A DNA stretch of 64,000 bases from a bacterium (GTDB lineage: Bacteria > UBA8248). The stretch is from contig OZ242260.1 of assembly GCA_965207065.1 (NCBI GenBank), forward strand, positions 1,600,001-1,664,000. The letters run 5' to 3'. The notes under the pieces were generated by a model, which worked only from the letters and a program-made list of their open reading frames with translations, did no database searches and was not told the DNA's origin. Shown here piece after piece: positions 37,756 through 43,354 of the stretch. The first letter of the stretch is position 1. Every line of letters begins with the position of its first letter. The translations under genes and the position numbers were made by a program.

Positions 37756-38784
37756 TCAAGCCGAAAAATGCTCCCAAGCGAGGTTATCCAACGCGAAAAT
37801 CCCGTCTGCGCGTTTGAGAGAAATTCCTTGAGTGACCGGCAGGATTTCTCCGATGGGCGTAAGCGGCGCCCCGCACGCCCGCCGGAGGACTTCTTGAAGC
37901 GCGCGAACGGATTCAGCGGGTGTCGTAACGAGAAGTTCATAGTCCTCTCCACCGTGCAACGCCCACTCCATGGGCTTTTTCTCGGCTACCGAGGCTGTTT
38001 CGAGCAGGGCGCCGGAGACGGGCAGTTCGGATTCCCAGAGGAGCGCGCCTGTTCCGCTCGCCTCACACAGGTGACGGATATCGCCCGCCAGACCATCGCT
38101 GATGTCCATCATTGCGGTCGCAAACCCCGACTCCGCGATAACTACCCCTTCCGCAACCCGGGGCTGCGGTTCGAGTTGCACGCGGGTGAGCGAGGCATGC
38201 ACGTCTTCGCGGAGTTGGATGTGCGGTGTGGAGGACAAGTGAAGCCCTGCTGCGGCATCTCCCAAATATCCCGTCACCAGAATCTGGTCCCCTGCGCGGG
38301 CGCCGTTTCTGCGAAGAATCTTCTCCTCCATCACCTCGCCGACGAGGAACACGTCCACGAACAAAGGCCCACTCGTCCGCGTGACGTTTCCACCCAGAAC
38401 CAAAATGTCGTATCGCTCAGAGAGCGCGCGAACCCCGCCATACAAGTCATCGAGAAACGAAATTGCTGTCTCTTCGGGTATGCCCAACGAGATGAGTGCG
38501 AAGCGCGGCTTTCCCCCCATGGCCGCCACATCGCTCACATTCACAGCCAGCGACTTGTAACCCACGGCGAATCCCGAAACATTCCCCGTGGACGGGAAAT
38601 GCACGCCGCTCACCTGCGCATCGCACGTCACAACCCAGCATTTTCCATCCGCCGCTTTGATGACGGCCGCATCATCTCCATTGCCTACGATGACGTCTGT
38701 GTCGTTCCCCACCGATCCGAGTACGTCTCTTAGACGCTCTATCAGGGCGAATTCGCCGATCTCACCAGCCGACTTGCCACTCAT
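37756..38784 (-). CDS. thiL: Thiamine-phosphate kinase
   Basis: GEFALIERL, GDDAAV, AVNVSDVAAMGG, MDISDGLAGD, GGEDYELL. Confidence 0.95.
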   Translation of the reverse strand: MSGKSAGEIGEFALIERLRDVLGSVGNDTDVIVGNGDDAAVIKAADGKCWVVTCDAQVSGVHFPSTGNVSGFAVGYKSLAVNVSDVAAMGGKPRFALISLGIPEETAISFLDDLYGGVRALSERYDILVLGGNVTRTSGPLFVDVFLVGEVMEEKILRRNGARAGDQILVTGYLGDAAAGLHLSSTPHIQLREDVHASLTRVQLEPQPRVAEGVVIAESGFATAMMDISDGLAGDIRHLCEASGTGALLWESELPVSGALLETASVAEKKPMEWALHGGEDYELLVTTPAESVRALQEVLRRACGAPLTPIGEILPVTQGISLKRADGIFALDNLAWEHFSA

Positions 38785-39425
38785 TCTTTCGCCCTCTCAA
38801 TGCGATTGCGCAATTCCCTTGTCGCGGCTTCCGGGTTTGGTGCCCCCATAACCGCGCCGATTACAGCTACGCCGGAGGCGCCGGCTTCGATGACGGGCTC
38901 CACGTTCTCGATACCGATCCCCCCGATGGCGACGGCGGGCAAACCAGGGGCATGTTCGATAATCCGCCGAAATCCTTCTGGCCCAATCGGCTCTCTCGCA
39001 TCGGCCTTGTTGCCCGTCGCGTAGATGGGACCTACGCCGATATAATCCGCATCCTCAGCGGCGGCTCGCGACGCCCATTCGGATTTTCCGGCTGTTACGC
39101 CATAAATCAACACATCTCCGCCTATCGCCCTGGCCCTCGGGAGCGGGAAATCCTCCTGTCCCAGATGCACCCCCTCCGCGCCACACGCCATGGCGACGTC
39201 CAACCGATCATTCACCGTCAAAGCACAGCCGGTTCCCTCCAGAGCATCTCGCAATTCATCAGCCAAGCGAATCATCTCCACACCACTCATATTTTTCTCG
39301 CGAAGCTGGACCATACCGGCCCCACTTATCGCGGCTGCCCGAACCGCGTCCCTCAGCTTCCATCCGGAAGCCTTCGCCAGAACCTTGCGGTCGGTAATGA
39401 CAACCAGCGATGGGTCGAATTTCAT
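38781..39425 (-). CDS. thiE: Thiamine phosphate synthase
   Basis: VQLREK, VNDRLDVA, GVHLGQED, DYIGVGP, AIGGI; overlaps thiL. Confidence 0.93.
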   Translation of the reverse strand: MKFDPSLVVITDRKVLAKASGWKLRDAVRAAAISGAGMVQLREKNMSGVEMIRLADELRDALEGTGCALTVNDRLDVAMACGAEGVHLGQEDFPLPRARAIGGDVLIYGVTAGKSEWASRAAAEDADYIGVGPIYATGNKADAREPIGPEGFRRIIEHAPGLPAVAIGGIGIENVEPVIEAGASGVAVIGAVMGAPNPEAATRELRNRIERAKE

Positions 39426-39614
39426 GGCGTCCCCCAAGCAGACAAGAGCAAAACTACCACGTTGATAATGAAACACGACTACCATGATAAGCAAGACAAT
39501 CCATGTTGAAGAATGCGTTTATCAATGAGAGGAGAAAAAATAATGAGGGATGTATCTCTTGCGTATTTCTTTCATGCTTGAGAATCTCTTCTTCTATCTT
39601 AAAAGGAGAGCATC

Positions 39615-40214
39615 ATGAGTTGGATCCAACCCATTTCTCCGGATGCCGTGGAGGGAGCAACAAAAGAAATTATCGAAGACCTGCGCAAGGCGAGAAAACC
39701 CATTCCAAAAATATTTCTCGAGATGGGAAGAAGACCCGGCATTTTGGCAGGGCGTGAAATGCTCCGCAATTCCGTACATGGCGGCTCGAGTCTCGGCACT
39801 AGGAGAGCGGAACTGCTTGCGTACTACGTGGCGGCTCATGGGGGCTGATACGGCTGAGCGATGAACCACGGGCAGTTGTTCCGTGACGCATGCGATGGTG
39901 TTTCCATCGCTGAAGTGGCTAAAGTACTAGACGACCCGAAGCAAGCGGATATCCTCGATCCCGCGGACCGAGTCATGCTCGACTATGCAGAGAAGATCAC
40001 ATACACGCCCCACGATATGGAAAAAACGGACATCGAGCGTTTGAGGCGCGTCGGCTTCAGCGAGGAGAATATCGTGGACATCATCGCTGCTGCGGTTTAT
40101 CGAAACTTCGCCAATTCCATAAACTACGCCTTCGGGCACGTGGAGCAAAACCCCGAAGGACCCGAGGAGTTGAATGCCGCCATCCAGAGGTTGAAAAAGA
40201 AGATTCGTGGCTAA
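39615..40214 (+). CDS. AhpD/carboxymuconolactone decarboxylase-family peroxidase, predicted selenoprotein with UxxU (TGA at 39846 and 39855), 199 aa
   Basis: ORFs 39615-39848 and 39861-40214 are in frame; readthrough gives ELLAYYVAAHGG-U-YG-U-AMNHG, aligned with the E-x11-CxxCxxxH AhpD motif. Confidence 0.75.
39858..39889 (+). promoter_or_regulatory. Putative bacterial SECIS hairpin
   Basis: CACGG-GC-AGTT-GT-T-CCGTG stem-loop with loop G 18 nt after the second UGA and 27 nt after the first; outer GCG/CGC pairing. Confidence 0.55.
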
Positions 40215-40950
40215 CAAATCACAAACCCTCTCATCTATATCGTATGTGGGCCTGTTCATATCGGGCACCTGCGCGCTGGCCGCTGCGGCTTCGGGACTGG
40301 GCCATCGCTGGGGATTTTGGCATTTCAGCACGGGGTTCCAGATTTTCAAGTCCGCATCCGTTATCGCTCTGATATCAGTCGCCGTATCCATGGCAGGTGG
40401 GCTATTTGCCCTGCGCGACGCCTCGAGATTGAGAACCGTCTGCGCCGCTCTCGGCATCGCGCTGGGTTTTACCGTAGCAGGTTTTCTGTATTCGCACATG
40501 CAAATTGCGAGACGGGTGCCCAAGATTCACGACATCACCACGGACAACCGAAACCCTCCCGCTTTTCAAGTCGTTCTTGCACTCAGAAAAGGAGCGAAAA
40601 ACCCTCCTGGGTATGAGGGGACGCGCATTGCGCGGCTCCAGATAAAAGCGTATCCGGACATCAAGCCAGTCACATTCCGGGATTCAAAAGAAGAAGTTTT
40701 CAAGCGCGCCCTCGACGCCGCACGCGCCATGGGCTGGCATGTGGTGTCATCCAAACCAACCGAAGGCCACATCGAGGCTTATGACACGACTTTCTGGTAC
40801 GGTTTCATCGACGACATCGTTATACGGATCACGTCGAACAGCGGGATGACGCGCCTCGATATCCGCTCGAAATCCCGCGTCGGCGTCGGGGACATCGGTG
40901 CGAACGCCCGGCGGATACGCGGCTTTTTCGAAAAACTGAAATTAAGATAA
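40207..40950 (+). CDS. DUF1499 domain membrane protein
   Basis: Three TMs then IHDITTD, AYPDIKP, IEAYDTTFWYGFIDDIVIR, DIRSKSRVGVGDIGANARRI. Confidence 0.88.
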   Translation: MANKSQTLSSISYVGLFISGTCALAAAASGLGHRWGFWHFSTGFQIFKSASVIALISVAVSMAGGLFALRDASRLRTVCAALGIALGFTVAGFLYSHMQIARRVPKIHDITTDNRNPPAFQVVLALRKGAKNPPGYEGTRIARLQIKAYPDIKPVTFRDSKEEVFKRALDAARAMGWHVVSSKPTEGHIEAYDTTFWYGFIDDIVIRITSNSGMTRLDIRSKSRVGVGDIGANARRIRGFFEKLKLR

Positions 40951-40969
40951 ACTCCGGTATACCAATTTC

Positions 40970-43354
40970 GTGATCGAGGACTCGTCAGGAAACGATAATG
41001 TCTTGAACATCAAGGTGAGGGCGCAATTGTCTGAATATCAGGTTCTGGGCAAATCCATACCGAGACTCGACTCCGCAGAGAAGGTCTCCGGTTACGCCGA
41101 TTTCGGCGATGATTTGAGAAGGCCCGGCTGCCTCACCGCGAAACTGCTCCTGAGCCCGCTTCCCCACGCCGAAATCAAAAAAATCGACACTACCGATGCC
41201 TTGAAAGTTCCCGGCGTACACGCCATCGTCACGGCGGATGATTTTTCCGGTATCCGCCACGGCAGGCTCGTGCGCGATGAACCACTACTCGCCATCGACA
41301 AGGTGCTTTACGTCGGCGAACGCGTGGCGGCCGTCGCCGCTGAAACCCCCGAAACCGCGCAAGCTGCGCTCGATAAAATTCATGTCGACTACAAGGTTCT
41401 CCCCGCTGTTTTCACGACAGACGACGCCATGAAGGACGACGCCCCGCTACTCCATGACGCGCTGGATGATTACGCATCGTTTCCGGGTATCGTGCGCTAT
41501 GGGAACGTGGCCGCCGATATTCTCATTCGATCCGGTGATCCCATAGAAAACGCGCTTGCGCACGCCGACTTCGTTTTCGAGGACGAATACGAAACACCCC
41601 GCGTTCACCAGAATTATCTCGAACCCCGCGCCATGCTCGCGGAGCCGGGGCCCGAGGACAGCACGACAGTCTATTCTCCCACCCAGGGGGCTTTTGTGGT
41701 GCGCGCCATCGCCTCGGAAATTCTCGCACTCCCCATGAACAAACTGCGCGTCGTGAGCACCCATGTGGGAGGCGCTTTCGGCGGAAAATCCCAACATCTG
41801 ATGGAAGCCCTGGCCGTTTTGTTGAGCAGAAAGTCGAACCGGCCCGTTCAACTGACGCTCAACCGCGAGGAGGAGACCATCACCGGAAACCCGAGGCACG
41901 CTTACCGTATGCGCTATCGCACGGGCTTGACGCGGGAAGGGAAAATCATCGCGCGCCACGTACAAATCACATCGAACAACGGCGCCTATTGCATGACGGG
42001 CCCAATGGTTTTGGGAAAATCCTGCTACACCAGCGCGGGGCCATATAAAATTCCAAATGTCAGGGTCGATGGTCTGCTCATATATACAAACCTTCCGCCC
42101 AGCGGCTCCTACCGGGGATTGGGCGTGGCGCAGGTCGCTTTCGCCTGCGAGCGTCATACCGACCGCATCGCTTCGGAACTGGAAATGGACCCGCTCGCCT
42201 TTCGGCGCCTCAACGGGATGGATGAAAACGACGAGGACCCCGCAGGCACGATTCTACAGAGCGTCAGCATCAAGGAAACACTCGATCGTGCGGGCAAGAA
42301 GGCGGGCTGGGGAAAGCAGAAAAAGAAAAACCGGAATGTCAGAATCAGGCGCGGGATAGGCATCGGCTGCGCACGCTATCCCACGGGTGGGGGAGCGTCG
42401 GGCGCCGTGGTGAAGGTGAACGAAGATGGGGGTCTGGCCGTGCTGGCCGGGTGTGCTGATTTAGGCACCGGGGCGGCTACTGTTATGGCGCAGGTGGCGG
42501 CGGAGGTGCTTGGAGCCGAAGTTCAGAAGGTGAGCGTTCGTATCGCCGACACCGAAACAACGCCCTTCGACGCCATCTCTGCGGGCAGCCGTACTACGTT
42601 CAACATGGCGCACGCCGTGCGAATGGCGGCGGAGGATGCCCGAGAGCAAATGCTTCGCCAAGCGGCGCGCATGCTCGAATCCTCCCCGGAAGACTTAAGT
42701 ATAGGCGAGGGAAACATTTTTGTGCGCGCCGCACCCTCACGCGCCATCGCGTTTTCCGAGGTGGCATTTTCGGCCGTATGGAAAGGCGACGGCCCCGTGA
42801 CCGGGCGCGGCTCCTACCGCGGGGAGAATCCCCCTCATCGTACGGACAACGTGCGTGGCCACCCGGAACCCTCAAGGCCTGGGCCCGAATTCGCCACCCA
42901 AATCGCCGAAGTCGAAGTCGATACCGAGACGGGAGAAACCAGAGTCTTGAGAATCACCAGCGCGCAGGACGTGGGCTTCGCCATGAACCCCCTCACCCTG
43001 AACGGACAGATAGAGGGCGGCATCGCCCAGGGGCTGGGCTGGGCGCTTGCCGAGCAGATCCACCACGAAGGGGGCATCATCGAACATGCGGATTTCGAGA
43101 GCCAGCTCAATCCCACGAGTCTGGACGTATCGGAAATCGCAAGCGTGATCGTGGAATCGCCCGACGTGGAAGGCCCCTACGGGGCCAAGGGGGCGGGGGA
43201 GATGCCGCTCATTCCGGCAGCGCCCGCGATTGTGAACGCGATCGCAGACGCCATAGGGGATCCGGCCAACCCGAACCTCAACAAGCTGCCGATTGCGCCC
43301 GAAGACATCGTTCGCGCAGTTCGCGACAAAAACGGTTCAGTATCCGTTTCCTAG
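40970..43354 (+). CDS. Xanthine dehydrogenase family molybdopterin-binding (large) subunit
   Basis: GKSIPRLD, SPLPHAEI, HQNYLEP, VGGAFGGK, SYRGLG, GQIEGGIAQGLG, GAKGAGE; true start may be about 41027. Confidence 0.92.
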   Translation: MIEDSSGNDNVLNIKVRAQLSEYQVLGKSIPRLDSAEKVSGYADFGDDLRRPGCLTAKLLLSPLPHAEIKKIDTTDALKVPGVHAIVTADDFSGIRHGRLVRDEPLLAIDKVLYVGERVAAVAAETPETAQAALDKIHVDYKVLPAVFTTDDAMKDDAPLLHDALDDYASFPGIVRYGNVAADILIRSGDPIENALAHADFVFEDEYETPRVHQNYLEPRAMLAEPGPEDSTTVYSPTQGAFVVRAIASEILALPMNKLRVVSTHVGGAFGGKSQHLMEALAVLLSRKSNRPVQLTLNREEETITGNPRHAYRMRYRTGLTREGKIIARHVQITSNNGAYCMTGPMVLGKSCYTSAGPYKIPNVRVDGLLIYTNLPPSGSYRGLGVAQVAFACERHTDRIASELEMDPLAFRRLNGMDENDEDPAGTILQSVSIKETLDRAGKKAGWGKQKKKNRNVRIRRGIGIGCARYPTGGGASGAVVKVNEDGGLAVLAGCADLGTGAATVMAQVAAEVLGAEVQKVSVRIADTETTPFDAISAGSRTTFNMAHAVRMAAEDAREQMLRQAARMLESSPEDLSIGEGNIFVRAAPSRAIAFSEVAFSAVWKGDGPVTGRGSYRGENPPHRTDNVRGHPEPSRPGPEFATQIAEVEVDTETGETRVLRITSAQDVGFAMNPLTLNGQIEGGIAQGLGWALAEQIHHEGGIIEHADFESQLNPTSLDVSEIASVIVESPDVEGPYGAKGAGEMPLIPAAPAIVNAIADAIGDPANPNLNKLPIAPEDIVRAVRDKNGSVSVS

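What the first reader, a model, noticed from the sequence alone, without database searches (positions are those of the whole stretch)
39615..40214. Candidate double-selenocysteine (UxxU) AhpD-family peroxidase hidden as two ORFs
Seen: ORF 39615-39848 and ORF 39861-40214 share one frame and are separated only by TGA TAC GGC TGA GCG. Read through, they give a 199-aa protein with ELLAYYVAAHGG-U-Y-G-U-AMN-H; both TGAs fall exactly on the Cys positions of the AhpD E-x11-CxxC-xxx-H motif, and a hairpin (CACGG...CCGTG, G in loop) follows within SECIS distance of both. No strong RBS precedes 39861, and other genes here (e.g. serS) stop at TGA, so global recoding is unlikely. Known: AhpD-like selenoproteins are described with CxxU; UxxU with a diselenide is known in SelL. 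Inference: a diselenide-forming AhpD-fold enzyme in which one SECIS may serve two UGAs 9 nt apart; I do not know of a characterised example.
Basis: partly seen in the sequence, partly recalled or inferred. Interest (0 to 1): 0.9.

Follow-up and report, generated by a model that had tools for sequence, protein, structure and literature searches.

The report
Two-selenocysteine AhpD-like redox gene
Two neighbouring "ORFs" are really one gene for a small AhpD-type redox protein in which both active-site cysteines are written as selenocysteine (UGA) codons; this two-selenium form is a new variant of an already known selenoprotein family.

Summary
Window 39615-40214 (+) reads through two in-frame TGAs (39846-48, 39855-57) as a 199-aa protein with E66-x11-U78-Y-G-U81-x3-H85.

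- **Conservation:** Both TGAs are kept in 24 of 51 Nitrospinota genomes (three genera, down to 52% identity) and in 4 metagenome contigs.
- **Selection:** Both halves are under purifying selection (dN/dS 0.13 and 0.17).
- **Cys alignment:** The TGAs align with the CxxC cysteines of Cys homologues (78 and 74 of 89).
- **Family and fold:** The protein passes NCBIfam TIGR01926 and folds as an AhpD-core protein (pLDDT 96.8).
- **Decoding machinery:** The genome has selA, selB, selD and one tRNA-Sec. No tRNA-ReC-like gene was found. TGA also serves as an ordinary stop.
- **SECIS:** One conserved hairpin (39867-39885) with frozen synonymous sites fits the published bacterial SECIS model for both UGAs.

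The UxxU form sits beside a CxxU paralogue (46% identity).

It is not unprecedented. AhpD-like CxxU selenoproteins are catalogued, UxxU occurs in other bacterial families, and a 2026 paper already proposes one SECIS for two UGAs. This scan has noted UxxU genes in other folds on other genomes, but none in an AhpD fold.

Verdict: a real gene, a new variant of a known kind. Sec insertion and a diselenide remain untested.

The parts
39603..39608 (+). Shine-Dalgarno AAGGAG, 6 nt before the start codon
   Evidence: read directly
39615..40214 (+). Single gene for a 199-aa AhpD-like (TIGR01926) selenoprotein, stop TAA 40212-14
39846..39848 (+). UGA1 = Sec78, at the first Cys position of CxxC (the newer Sec site; Cys in the paralogue)
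39855..39857 (+). UGA2 = Sec81, at the second Cys position of CxxC (also Sec in the CxxU paralogues and class-level relatives)
39849..39885 (+). Stretch with frozen synonymous sites (codons 79-90), running from just after UGA1 to the 3' end of the hairpin
39867..39885 (+). Candidate SECIS upper stem-loop: 7 bp with bulged U39879, loop AGUU 39874-77. There are 16 nt between UGA2 and the loop, and 25 nt between UGA1 and the loop.
   Evidence: model constraints from PMC13188914
40207..40950 (+). Downstream DUF1499 gene, overlapping the stop of the selenoprotein gene; co-located in genus g1 and in G024
40970..43354 (+). Xanthine-dehydrogenase-family molybdopterin-binding subunit gene; this neighbourhood was seen only in genus g1
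38781..39494 (-). Divergent thiamine-phosphate synthase (ThiE) gene, followed by ThiL at 37756-38784; ThiE lies near the gene in all three genera

Best explanation
One gene encodes a 199-aa all-helical AhpD-core thiol/selenol oxidoreductase of the 'peroxidase-related' subfamily (TIGR01926). Both redox residues of the E-x11-CxxC-x3-H centre are selenocysteine (U78-Y-G-U81).

The ribosome reads both UGAs, 9 nt apart, with SelB and Sec-tRNA(Sec) recruited by a single hairpin at 39867-39885. This hairpin is the SECIS already used by the one-Sec (CxxU) relatives for the second UGA. The first UGA arose later from TGC/TGT by one base change and uses the same element from 9 nt further away.

By analogy with AhpD, Sec81 would be the attacking nucleophile and Sec78 the resolving residue, so the oxidised enzyme would carry an intramolecular diselenide.

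Shown: gene integrity, conservation, fold, Cys alignment, presence of the decoding machinery, and RNA-level constraint on the hairpin.

Inferred: Sec insertion at both sites, shared SECIS use, the diselenide, and the substrate (peroxide or a partner peroxidase).
For: Family and motif
- Read-through protein and motif.
- TIGR01926 scores 88.9 bits against a cutoff of 81.8.
- Of the 89 length-selected representatives (170-220 aa) out of 149 listed, column 78 is Cys in 78, column 81 is Cys in 74, CxxC occurs in 67, E66 in 84 and H85 in 88.

Conservation and selection
- Two TGAs occur in 24 of 51 Nitrospinota genomes. The motif was verified in 24 of 24 loci and in 4 of 4 metagenome loci.
- Median dN/dS is 0.132 (codons 1-77, 171 pairs) and 0.170 (codons 96-199, 170 pairs), with dS 0.55-0.70.
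- Independent DNA assemblies X3 and X10 show no difference at either TGA.

Fold
- AF2 gives pLDDT 96.8 and pTM 0.91, with a helix starting at residue 79.
- Foldseek finds 6k40 (TM 0.75/0.80), 2oyo and 2prr. By sequence, 6k40_A matches at E 7.7e-13.

Decoding machinery
- selA, selB, selD (itself with an in-frame TGA) and tRNA-Sec are present.
- Among 46 tRNA genes there is one tRNA-Sec(UCA) and one ordinary 75-nt tRNA-Cys.

Hairpin
- Codons with no synonymous variation: 7 of 10 inside codons 79-90 against 6 of 84 outside (Fisher p = 1.7e-5).
- 22 of 24 orthologues share the same fold, 1 has an 8-bp variant and 1 is disrupted.
- 93.3% of cells are paired, against 24-52% when the partners are slid.
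- In 40-nt context the MFE is -8.3 to -12.8 kcal/mol.
- Spacing is 16 and 25 nt, within the 16-37 nt model window, with G at loop position 2.
- The distant CxxU relatives keep the hairpin at the same place even though its 3' arm encodes different residues (L-C instead of F-R).
Against: - No direct evidence of Sec insertion. The RNA contigs (X19, X20) cover only 39482-39731 and never reach the TGAs.
- The hairpin region is not thermodynamically unusual: z = -0.16, and 86 of 200 shuffles fold at least as well.
- The 19-nt core alone is -6.1 kcal/mol, weaker than the model's -7.5.
- Only 1 of 7 pairs shows a change on both sides, and the tested structure was derived from one of these sequences.
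- G055 has a stem mismatch (CGT to CAT).
- In E. coli the stem-loop sits 11 nt from the UGA (PMC8659212). Here it sits 9 nt from UGA2 and 18 nt from UGA1, so one of the two sites is off the E. coli optimum.
- Pfam CMD scores 19 bits, below its threshold of 23.
- In the CxxU paralogues the MFE prefers a different hairpin about 8 nt further downstream, so hairpin homology with them is not certain.
- The Fisher test treats related sequences as independent and therefore overstates significance.
Confidence: 0.8

Rival explanations
1. Only UGA2 is read as selenocysteine. UGA1 is read as cysteine (or another residue), by a SECIS-dependent Cys-recoding tRNA (tRNA-ReC/SelC*) or by near-cognate decoding, so the mature protein is effectively CxxU.
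For: PMC13582414 (passages) reports tRNA-ReC-like genes enriched in genomes with UXXU hydrogenases and raises this possibility. UGA1 lies 18 nt from the stem, compared with 11 nt in E. coli. The CxxU state is the catalogued one for this family.
Against: ARAGORN finds 46 tRNAs in the closed 4.48-Mb genome, with one tRNA-Sec(UCA) and one ordinary 75-nt tRNA-Cys(GCA). The weaker Rfam tRNA-Sec hits that were examined (7 of 9) are Leu, Ser, Tyr and Asp tRNAs. If Cys were wanted, TGC or TGT would serve, yet TGA is kept in 24 of 24 orthologues at dS of about 0.6-0.7.
Confidence: 0.1
2. UGA1 mostly terminates translation. The gene yields mainly a 77-aa fragment, and full-length protein appears only when selenium is plentiful, so the double UGA acts chiefly as a selenium-dependent gate.
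For: Two successive Sec insertions should multiply inefficiency (general knowledge of bacterial Sec decoding, not tested here). The RNA contigs seen cover only the 5' part, but contigs cannot show transcript ends.
Against: UGA1 sits exactly on a catalytic Cys column (78 of 89 homologues), not at an arbitrary site. The C-terminal half is under the same purifying selection as the N-terminal half. This reading is compatible with the main one rather than opposed to it.
Confidence: 0.06
3. The locus is a split gene or pseudogene: two separate polypeptides (77 aa and 117 aa), as public annotation has it.
For: Public protein sets hold only the 117/118-aa downstream ORF, as 'hypothetical protein' (24 clusters). 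An ATG is present at 39861 in the window.
Against: The frame, both TGAs and the Y-G between them are conserved in 24 genomes. Codon 83 is GTC, GTA or ATT in three orthologues. There is no Shine-Dalgarno match before 39861. dN/dS is 0.13-0.17 on both sides. A split would cut the fold inside its active-site helix.
Confidence: 0.02

Closest known systems
AhpD-like selenoprotein family (TIGR01926, CxxU, one Sec), as tabulated in PMC13188914 and first reported from the Sargasso Sea and GOS metagenomes (PMC1088965 listing only; PMC2398784 passages)
   Same: Same HMM family, same fold, Sec at the second position of the CxxC motif, and a hairpin at the same place after that UGA. The window's own genome has a 46%-identical CxxU paralogue.
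   Different: The first Cys is also Sec (UxxU, two Sec). The review tables I read list this family only as CxxU with one Sec.
DR1765, the AhpD-like protein of Deinococcus radiodurans (PDB 6k40)
   Same: It is the best solved relative by sequence (E 7.7e-13) and among the best by fold (TM 0.75/0.80). The CxxC aligns with U78/U81. The mutant is H2O2-sensitive and the Cys residues matter for complementation (PMC8945050 passages).
   Different: It has Cys rather than Sec, is about 25% identical, and comes from a different phylum.
Prokaryotic UxxU selenoproteins: Prx-like thiol:disulfide oxidoreductase, metal-binding protein NF041115, FmdB-family protein, and UXXU Group 4 [NiFeSe] hydrogenases (PMC13188914, PMC9312934, PMC13582414)
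   Same: Two UGAs 9 nt apart in a CxxC-derived motif. A single downstream SECIS is proposed for the hydrogenases.
   Different: None of those listed is in the AhpD/CMD family (recalled: they are thioredoxin-fold, metal-binding-motif or hydrogenase large-subunit proteins). NF041115 matches in this genome contain no TGA and fall below its cutoff.
Selenoprotein L (SelL), the eukaryotic UxxU protein with a diselenide (Shchedrina et al. 2007; seen only as a reference entry in PMC2398784; content recalled)
   Same: A UxxU redox motif capable of forming a diselenide.
   Different: It has a thioredoxin-like fold, a eukaryotic 3'-UTR SECIS and a different lineage.
Mycobacterium tuberculosis AhpD (PDB 1gu9/1knc)
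   Same: The E-x11-CxxC-x3-H active-site pattern (pattern recalled; conservation of these columns among this protein's own relatives) and a helical core.
   Different: Only a weak structural match (E 0.06, TM 0.46/0.53). No ahpC gene lies next to it.

Membership tests
NCBIfam TIGR01926 'peroxidase-related enzyme' (AhpD-like protein of the selenoprotein catalogues) | Whole-protein HMM score above the curated cutoff | tested here: met
   88.9 bits against a cutoff of 81.8, with TGA read as Cys. In the six-frame genome search, where stops are not scored as Cys, the score is 73.8 bits.
NCBIfam TIGR01926 'peroxidase-related enzyme' (AhpD-like protein of the selenoprotein catalogues) | AhpD-core all-helical fold | tested here: met
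   AF2 pLDDT 96.8 with ten helices. Foldseek top hits are 2prr, 6k40, 2oyo and 3c1l, with TM 0.67-0.80.
NCBIfam TIGR01926 'peroxidase-related enzyme' (AhpD-like protein of the selenoprotein catalogues) | Conserved E-x11-C-x-x-C-x3-H centre, with the Sec codons on the Cys columns | tested here: met
   Of 89 homologues: E66 in 84, C78 in 78, C81 in 74, H85 in 88.
NCBIfam TIGR01926 'peroxidase-related enzyme' (AhpD-like protein of the selenoprotein catalogues) | Catalogued Sec pattern CxxU, one Sec | tested here: not met
   This gene is UxxU with two Sec. The table in PMC13188914 lists CxxU with 1 Sec. It is therefore a variant form of the family.
NCBIfam TIGR01926 'peroxidase-related enzyme' (AhpD-like protein of the selenoprotein catalogues) | Peroxidase or disulfide-reductase activity | not testable with these tools
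   Needs an enzyme assay.
Pfam PF02627 Carboxymuconolactone decarboxylase (CMD) family | Score above the Pfam gathering threshold | tested here: not met
   19 bits against 23, and only residues 141-174 match. The fold nevertheless matches CMD/AhpD structures.
Bacterial SECIS (consensus model quoted in PMC13188914, Fig. 2 legend) | Apical loop of 3-9 nt on an upper stem of 4-16 bp | tested here: met
   7-bp stem with one bulged U and a 4-nt loop in 22 of 24 orthologues; an 8-bp stem with a 3-nt loop in 1; disrupted in 1 (G055).
Bacterial SECIS (consensus model quoted in PMC13188914, Fig. 2 legend) | G in one of the first two loop positions | tested here: met
   Loop AGUU in genus g1 and GGUC in G023, G056 and G057; in G024 the first loop base is G under the MFE (8-bp stem, 3-nt loop).
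Bacterial SECIS (consensus model quoted in PMC13188914, Fig. 2 legend) | [quoted passage not shown] | tested here: met
   16 nt for UGA2 (at the lower limit) and 25 nt for UGA1, counted coordinates and the structure.
Bacterial SECIS (consensus model quoted in PMC13188914, Fig. 2 legend) | MFE of -7.5 kcal/mol or lower | tested here: inconclusive
   The core 19 nt give -6.1. The 40 nt after UGA2 give -11.5 in the window and -8.3 to -12.8 across orthologues. The region is no more stable than shuffled sequence (z -0.16).
Bacterial SECIS (consensus model quoted in PMC13188914, Fig. 2 legend) | Binds SelB and directs Sec insertion | not testable with these tools
   Needs a reporter or binding assay.
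Bacterial Sec-decoding trait | selA, selB, selD and tRNA-Sec present in the genome | tested here: met
   selA 579 bits, selB 386 bits, selD 334 bits (with 1 TGA) and tRNA-Sec 75.9 bits, all above their cutoffs. ARAGORN calls a tRNA-SeC with anticodon UCA.
SelL-type diselenide oxidoreductases | UxxU motif | tested here: met
   U78-Y-G-U81.
SelL-type diselenide oxidoreductases | Thioredoxin-like fold | tested here: not met
   The model is all-helical with an AhpD core.
SelL-type diselenide oxidoreductases | Diselenide bond in the oxidised state | not testable with these tools
   Model coordinates were not exposed and Sec was modelled as Cys. Needs biochemistry.
Canonical AhpD (M. tuberculosis type, partner of AhpC) | Close structural match and an adjacent ahpC gene | tested here: not met
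   1gu9 matches at E 0.06 with TM 0.46/0.53. The neighbours are ThiE, DUF1499 and an XDH-family gene. ahpC elsewhere in the genome was not searched.

The most novel reading that the evidence does not exclude
Both UGAs, 9 nt apart, are read as selenocysteine off one 19-nt hairpin, giving the first natural diselenide redox centre in a non-thioredoxin, all-helical AhpD fold. That would make this small gene a compact natural test case for how much UGA-to-SECIS spacing bacterial SelB tolerates (9 and 18 nt to the stem).

A bolder extension: the fold also resembles the thiol-dependent debrominase Bmp8 (6ohj, TM 0.68/0.72). Earlier scan notes call the host a sponge symbiont, so the enzyme could be a selenium-based reductive dehalogenase rather than a peroxidase. 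I give that extension about 5%.
Probability: 0.55. Interest if true: 0.6.

Novelty: new variant of a known kind. Interest (0 to 1): 0.45.

Why it matters
- **Annotation:** The gene is mis-annotated everywhere I looked. Only the 117/118-aa tail appears, as 'hypothetical protein', so selenoproteome counts for these Nitrospinota symbionts miss it.
- **Biochemistry:** A Sec-Sec pair in an AhpD fold would extend diselenide chemistry beyond thioredoxin-fold proteins.
- **Evolution:** The UxxU form and its CxxU paralogue sit in the same genomes. They form a natural matched pair for asking what a second Sec adds.
- **Mechanism:** It is one more independent case, conserved across three genera, in which two UGAs 9 nt apart share one visible SECIS. 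A 2026 paper raised this question for hydrogenases but did not test it.

Tried and rejected
- **Rfam:** the gathering scan of the window gave 0 hits. I do not know of a bacterial SECIS model in Rfam (not checked), so this says nothing.
- **ARAGORN on the window:** no tRNA.
- **Thermodynamics:** no signal (z -0.16).
- **Extra hairpin specific to the two-Sec form** (a lead from earlier notes e1-985097 and e1-769723): none found. Synonymous sites upstream of UGA1 vary freely. The small GGCUG-AUA-CGGCU hairpin around UGA1 loses a pair in most orthologues, which have GGG rather than GGC. The perfect hairpin at 39892-39910 is specific to the window's strain.
- **Other UxxU genes in this genome:** of 195 in-frame TGA-N6-TGA sites with at least 40 open codons on each side, only this one looked by eye like coding sequence with a redox motif. 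This was inspection, not a homology test. NF041115 matches have no TGA.
- **Single origin of UxxU:** the ML tree needs 2 changes, but well-supported branches force only 1, and 11% of 200 bootstrap trees give 1. Unresolved.
- **Metagenome scan:** The 10-row alignment found only 4 loci of the same clade. Its patterns came from the motif region, so it says nothing about UxxU AhpD-like genes in other phyla.
- **RNA evidence:** two metatranscriptome contigs cover only 39482-39731 and 39482-39681. This is no evidence on read-through, and not proof of transcription.
- **Conserved functional partner:** DUF1499 follows the gene in genus g1 and in G024. The XDH-family gene follows only in g1. In genus g2 only ThiE/ThiL lie nearby. 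No partner is shared by all three genera.

Full report
**1. Observation**

- An ATG at 39615, preceded by AAGGAG with a 6-nt spacer, opens a frame that runs to TAA at 40212-14.
- The frame is interrupted only by TGA 39846-48 and TGA 39855-57 (TGA TAC GGC TGA).
- Reading TGA as U gives 199 aa with E66-LLAYYVAAHGG-U78-YG-U81-AMN-H85.
- TGA is an ordinary stop in this genome. 18 of 39 ORFs of 300 aa or more in the window end in TGA, among them the Pfam-confirmed CoA-transferase and ThiL genes. 5 of 21 orthologues of this gene also end in TGA.

**2. One gene under selection, not two ORFs or a pseudogene**

*Distribution.* A six-frame search of 41 related genomes found the orthologue with two in-frame TGAs in 21. 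The search of all 51 Nitrospinota genomes held found it in 24:
- 19 of 23 in the window's genus (not found in G001, G007 or G009; G010 has only C-terminal fragments);
- 1 of 1 in genus g3;
- 4 of 5 in genus g2;
- none at E <= 1e-35 in the other 22 genomes.

*Sequence check.* I inspected all 24, and every one reads GG-TGA-TAY-GGN-TGA-GCN. Four metagenome contigs are also UxxU, one of them U-H-G-U. Identity falls to 52%.

*Selection.* Among the 19 genus sequences, median dN/dS is 0.132 for codons 1-77 (171 pairs, dS 0.70) and 0.170 for codons 96-199 (170 pairs, dS 0.55).

*No separate downstream start.* Codon 83, the supposed start of the second ORF, is GTC, GTA or ATT in three orthologues.

*Read-level support.* Independent DNA assemblies from two other studies (X3, X10) differ from the window at 12-13 positions, none of them in either TGA.

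*Public annotation.* Public protein sets contain only the 117/118-aa tail, named 'hypothetical protein' where named at all (24 clusters).

**3. What the protein is**

- With TGA read as Cys, the protein scores 88.9 bits on NCBIfam TIGR01926 'peroxidase-related enzyme' (cutoff 81.8). Pfam CMD is below threshold (19 against 23 bits).
- An exhaustive HMMER search gave 1042 relatives at E <= 1e-3. Of the 149 new proteins listed, I aligned the 89 that are 170-220 aa long and dropped 60 shorter or longer ones.
  - Column 78: Cys in 78, Ser in 10, Ala in 1.
  - Column 81: Cys in 74.
  - 67 of 89 are CxxC. E66 is kept in 84 and H85 in 88.
- AlphaFold2 on an 88-row alignment gave pLDDT 96.8 and pTM 0.91. 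It is an all-helical protein with residue 78 just before the N-terminus of helix 79-92 and residue 81 in its first turn.
- Foldseek's best solved matches are AhpD-core 'peroxidase-related' proteins: 2prr, 6k40 (TM 0.75/0.80), 2oyo (0.76/0.80) and 3c1l. Next come the debrominase Bmp8 (6ohj, 0.68/0.72) and S. pneumoniae AhpD. M. tuberculosis AhpD matches only weakly (E 0.06, TM 0.46/0.53).
- By sequence, 6k40 (D. radiodurans DR1765) is the best solved relative (E 7.7e-13). According to passages of PMC8945050, loss of DR1765 increases H2O2 sensitivity, and its CxxC cysteines matter for complementation.

**4. Decoding machinery**

- The closed 4.48-Mb genome has selA (579 bits), the adjacent selB (386 bits), selD (334 bits, itself with one in-frame TGA) and tRNA-Sec (75.9 bits). 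All are above their curated cutoffs.
- ARAGORN finds 46 tRNA genes: one tRNA-Sec(UCA), one ordinary 75-nt tRNA-Cys(GCA) and one tRNA-Trp(CCA).
- Seven of the nine weaker Rfam tRNA-Sec matches were examined (the other two were not) and are Leu, Ser, Tyr and Asp tRNAs.
- I therefore found no candidate for the Cys-recoding tRNA-ReC that PMC13582414 discusses for UXXU genes.

**5. The RNA element**

*Synonymous freeze.* Upstream of UGA1 synonymous sites vary freely. From codon 79 to the first base of codon 91 they are almost frozen. Among residue-invariant degenerate codons, 7 of 10 in codons 79-90 show no variation among the 19 genus sequences, against 6 of 84 elsewhere (one-sided Fisher p = 1.7e-5). 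The sequences are related, so this p-value is optimistic. Arg90 is CGT in 23 of 24 orthologues and Leu88 is TTG in all 19 genus sequences.

*Structure.* The frozen stretch ends exactly at the 3' end of a hairpin at 39867-39885. The hairpin has a 7-bp stem with a bulged U and the loop AGUU. The loop is GGUC in G023, G056 and G057, and G024 has an 8-bp variant.
- 22 of 24 orthologues share this fold, 1 has the 8-bp variant, and 1 (G055) has a mismatch.
- On an alignment of 35 family members, 93.3% of cells pair, against 24-52% when the partners are slid. Only one pair changes on both sides, and the structure was derived from these same sequences.

*Test against the published model.* The model is quoted in the Fig. 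2 legend of PMC13188914.
- Loop and stem sizes fit.
- G is at loop position 2.
- 16 nt separate UGA2 from the loop, and 25 nt separate UGA1 from it. Both are inside the 16-37 nt window.
- The 19-nt core alone is -6.1 kcal/mol. With 40 nt of context the MFE is -8.3 to -12.8.
- The region is no more stable than shuffled sequence (z -0.16).

*Relatives.* Class-level CxxU relatives (about 32% identity) keep a hairpin at the same distance from their single UGA, although its 3' arm encodes L-C rather than F-R. This argues for selection on the RNA. In the 46%-identical CxxU paralogues the MFE prefers a different hairpin about 8 nt further on, so I do not press the homology there.

**6. Origin**

- The window's genome holds a 46%-identical paralogue reading GG-C-YG-U (C1:2935078). 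The class-level relatives are CxxU as well. The second UGA is therefore the older Sec site, and the first is one base change from TGC or TGT.
- On a tree built with the two motif columns masked, UxxU needs two changes. Well-supported branches force only one, so a single origin is neither shown nor excluded.
- The genome has 12 TIGR01926-like loci: 9 with one TGA, this one with two, 1 with no stop and 1 with a TAA.

**7. Context**

- In the window's genus the order is CoA-transferase, ThiL and ThiE on the minus strand, then the UxxU gene, DUF1499 and an XDH-family molybdopterin subunit on the plus strand.
- DUF1499 also follows the gene in G024. In genus g2 only ThiE/ThiL lie nearby.
- No partner is shared by all three genera, and no ahpC gene is adjacent.

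**8. Comparison with what is known**

*AhpD-like families.* The tables I read list all four AhpD-like selenoprotein families as CxxU with one Sec each (PMC13188914 passages): AhpD-like TIGR01926, CMD-like PF02627, AhpD-related NF041238 and the distant AhpD homologue NF041047.

*UxxU elsewhere.* UxxU is listed for Prx-like thiol:disulfide oxidoreductase, metal-binding protein NF041115 and an FmdB-family protein. It is also reported in a GOS Prx-like 2 family (PMC2398784). PMC13582414 describes 16 UXXU Group 4 hydrogenases and states that both UGAs may be decoded under a single downstream SECIS.

*Searches for a UxxU AhpD-like protein in print.*
- UxxU, AhpD and selenoprotein together: 21 papers held at least two of the terms. 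Three held all three, and I read their matching passages. I also read passages of two other listed papers, BSepDB and the Olavius paper. None of the passages describes such a protein.
- Nitrospinota with selenoprotein: 1 paper, BSepDB.
- A diselenide / bacterial selenoprotein search found nothing relevant.
- I saw passages only, not whole texts.

*This scan.* It has earlier notes of UxxU genes in thioredoxin-fold, Trx/PDZ, VKOR and Asgard Prx-like proteins on other genomes. It has nothing resembling this sequence.

**9. Verdict**

This is a real, intact, conserved gene for a two-selenocysteine AhpD-like redox protein. It is a new variant (UxxU) of a known selenoprotein family, found so far in one Nitrospinota family. 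Its decoding by one shared SECIS and its diselenide chemistry are plausible but untested. Because both UxxU motifs and the shared-SECIS idea are already in print for other families, its interest is moderate rather than high.

Noticed in passing
G000:C1, 12 loci listed (e.g. 2935081-2935608, 571033-571563, 3371045-3371563, 478509-479036): Large expansion of AhpD-like (TIGR01926-like) genes in this genome: 12 matches, 9 of them with a single in-frame TGA. The organism may carry about ten AhpD-like selenoprotein genes.
   Followed up: partly
window 40970-43354 and G000:C1:2849109-2852016 (L079): An XDH-family molybdopterin subunit gene lies two genes downstream of the UxxU gene. This is a twice-seen AhpD-like selenoprotein / Mo-enzyme neighbourhood. 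The link is genus-specific for the UxxU gene.
   Followed up: partly
G000:C1:543537-544499 (L011): selD itself contains one in-frame TGA, so selenophosphate synthetase is a selenoprotein here.
   Followed up: no
window 39482: Contigs from two metatranscriptome runs of one study both begin at 39482, 133 nt upstream of the ATG. The sigma-70 scan found no promoter-like site in 39300-41100. Contigs cannot define a 5' end.
   Followed up: no
window 39892-39910: A perfect 7-bp hairpin GCGATGG-TGTTT-CCATCGC lies downstream of the SECIS candidate. Its 5' arm and loop differ in the other orthologues within the A2 alignment, which ends at 39905, before the 3' arm. It also lies beyond the 16-37 nt window.
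   Followed up: yes
G010:C4:127136-127390 and G010:C5:835962-836216: Two matches with the same E-value, score and identity to the query (79%), covering only residues 115-199 of the UxxU protein, in a genome of the same genus that lacks the full gene.
   Followed up: no
L094:1501-2058: A metagenome relative has U-H-G-U (TGA CAT GGG TGA). This is the only variation seen between the two Sec codons.
   Followed up: no
window 40213: In the assemblies of runs X3 and X10 the stop codon TAA reads TGA (A>G at 40213), as in 5 of the 21 orthologues.
   Followed up: no
G000:C1:22551, 1188248 (-), 3153574: Three near-identical copies of a gene junction, '...PNH-TGA-AAG-GAG-TGA-ACC-ATG...' followed by MTATATHDHKEM..., turned up in the TGA-N6-TGA scan. 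This is probably a repeated element, not a selenoprotein.
   Followed up: no
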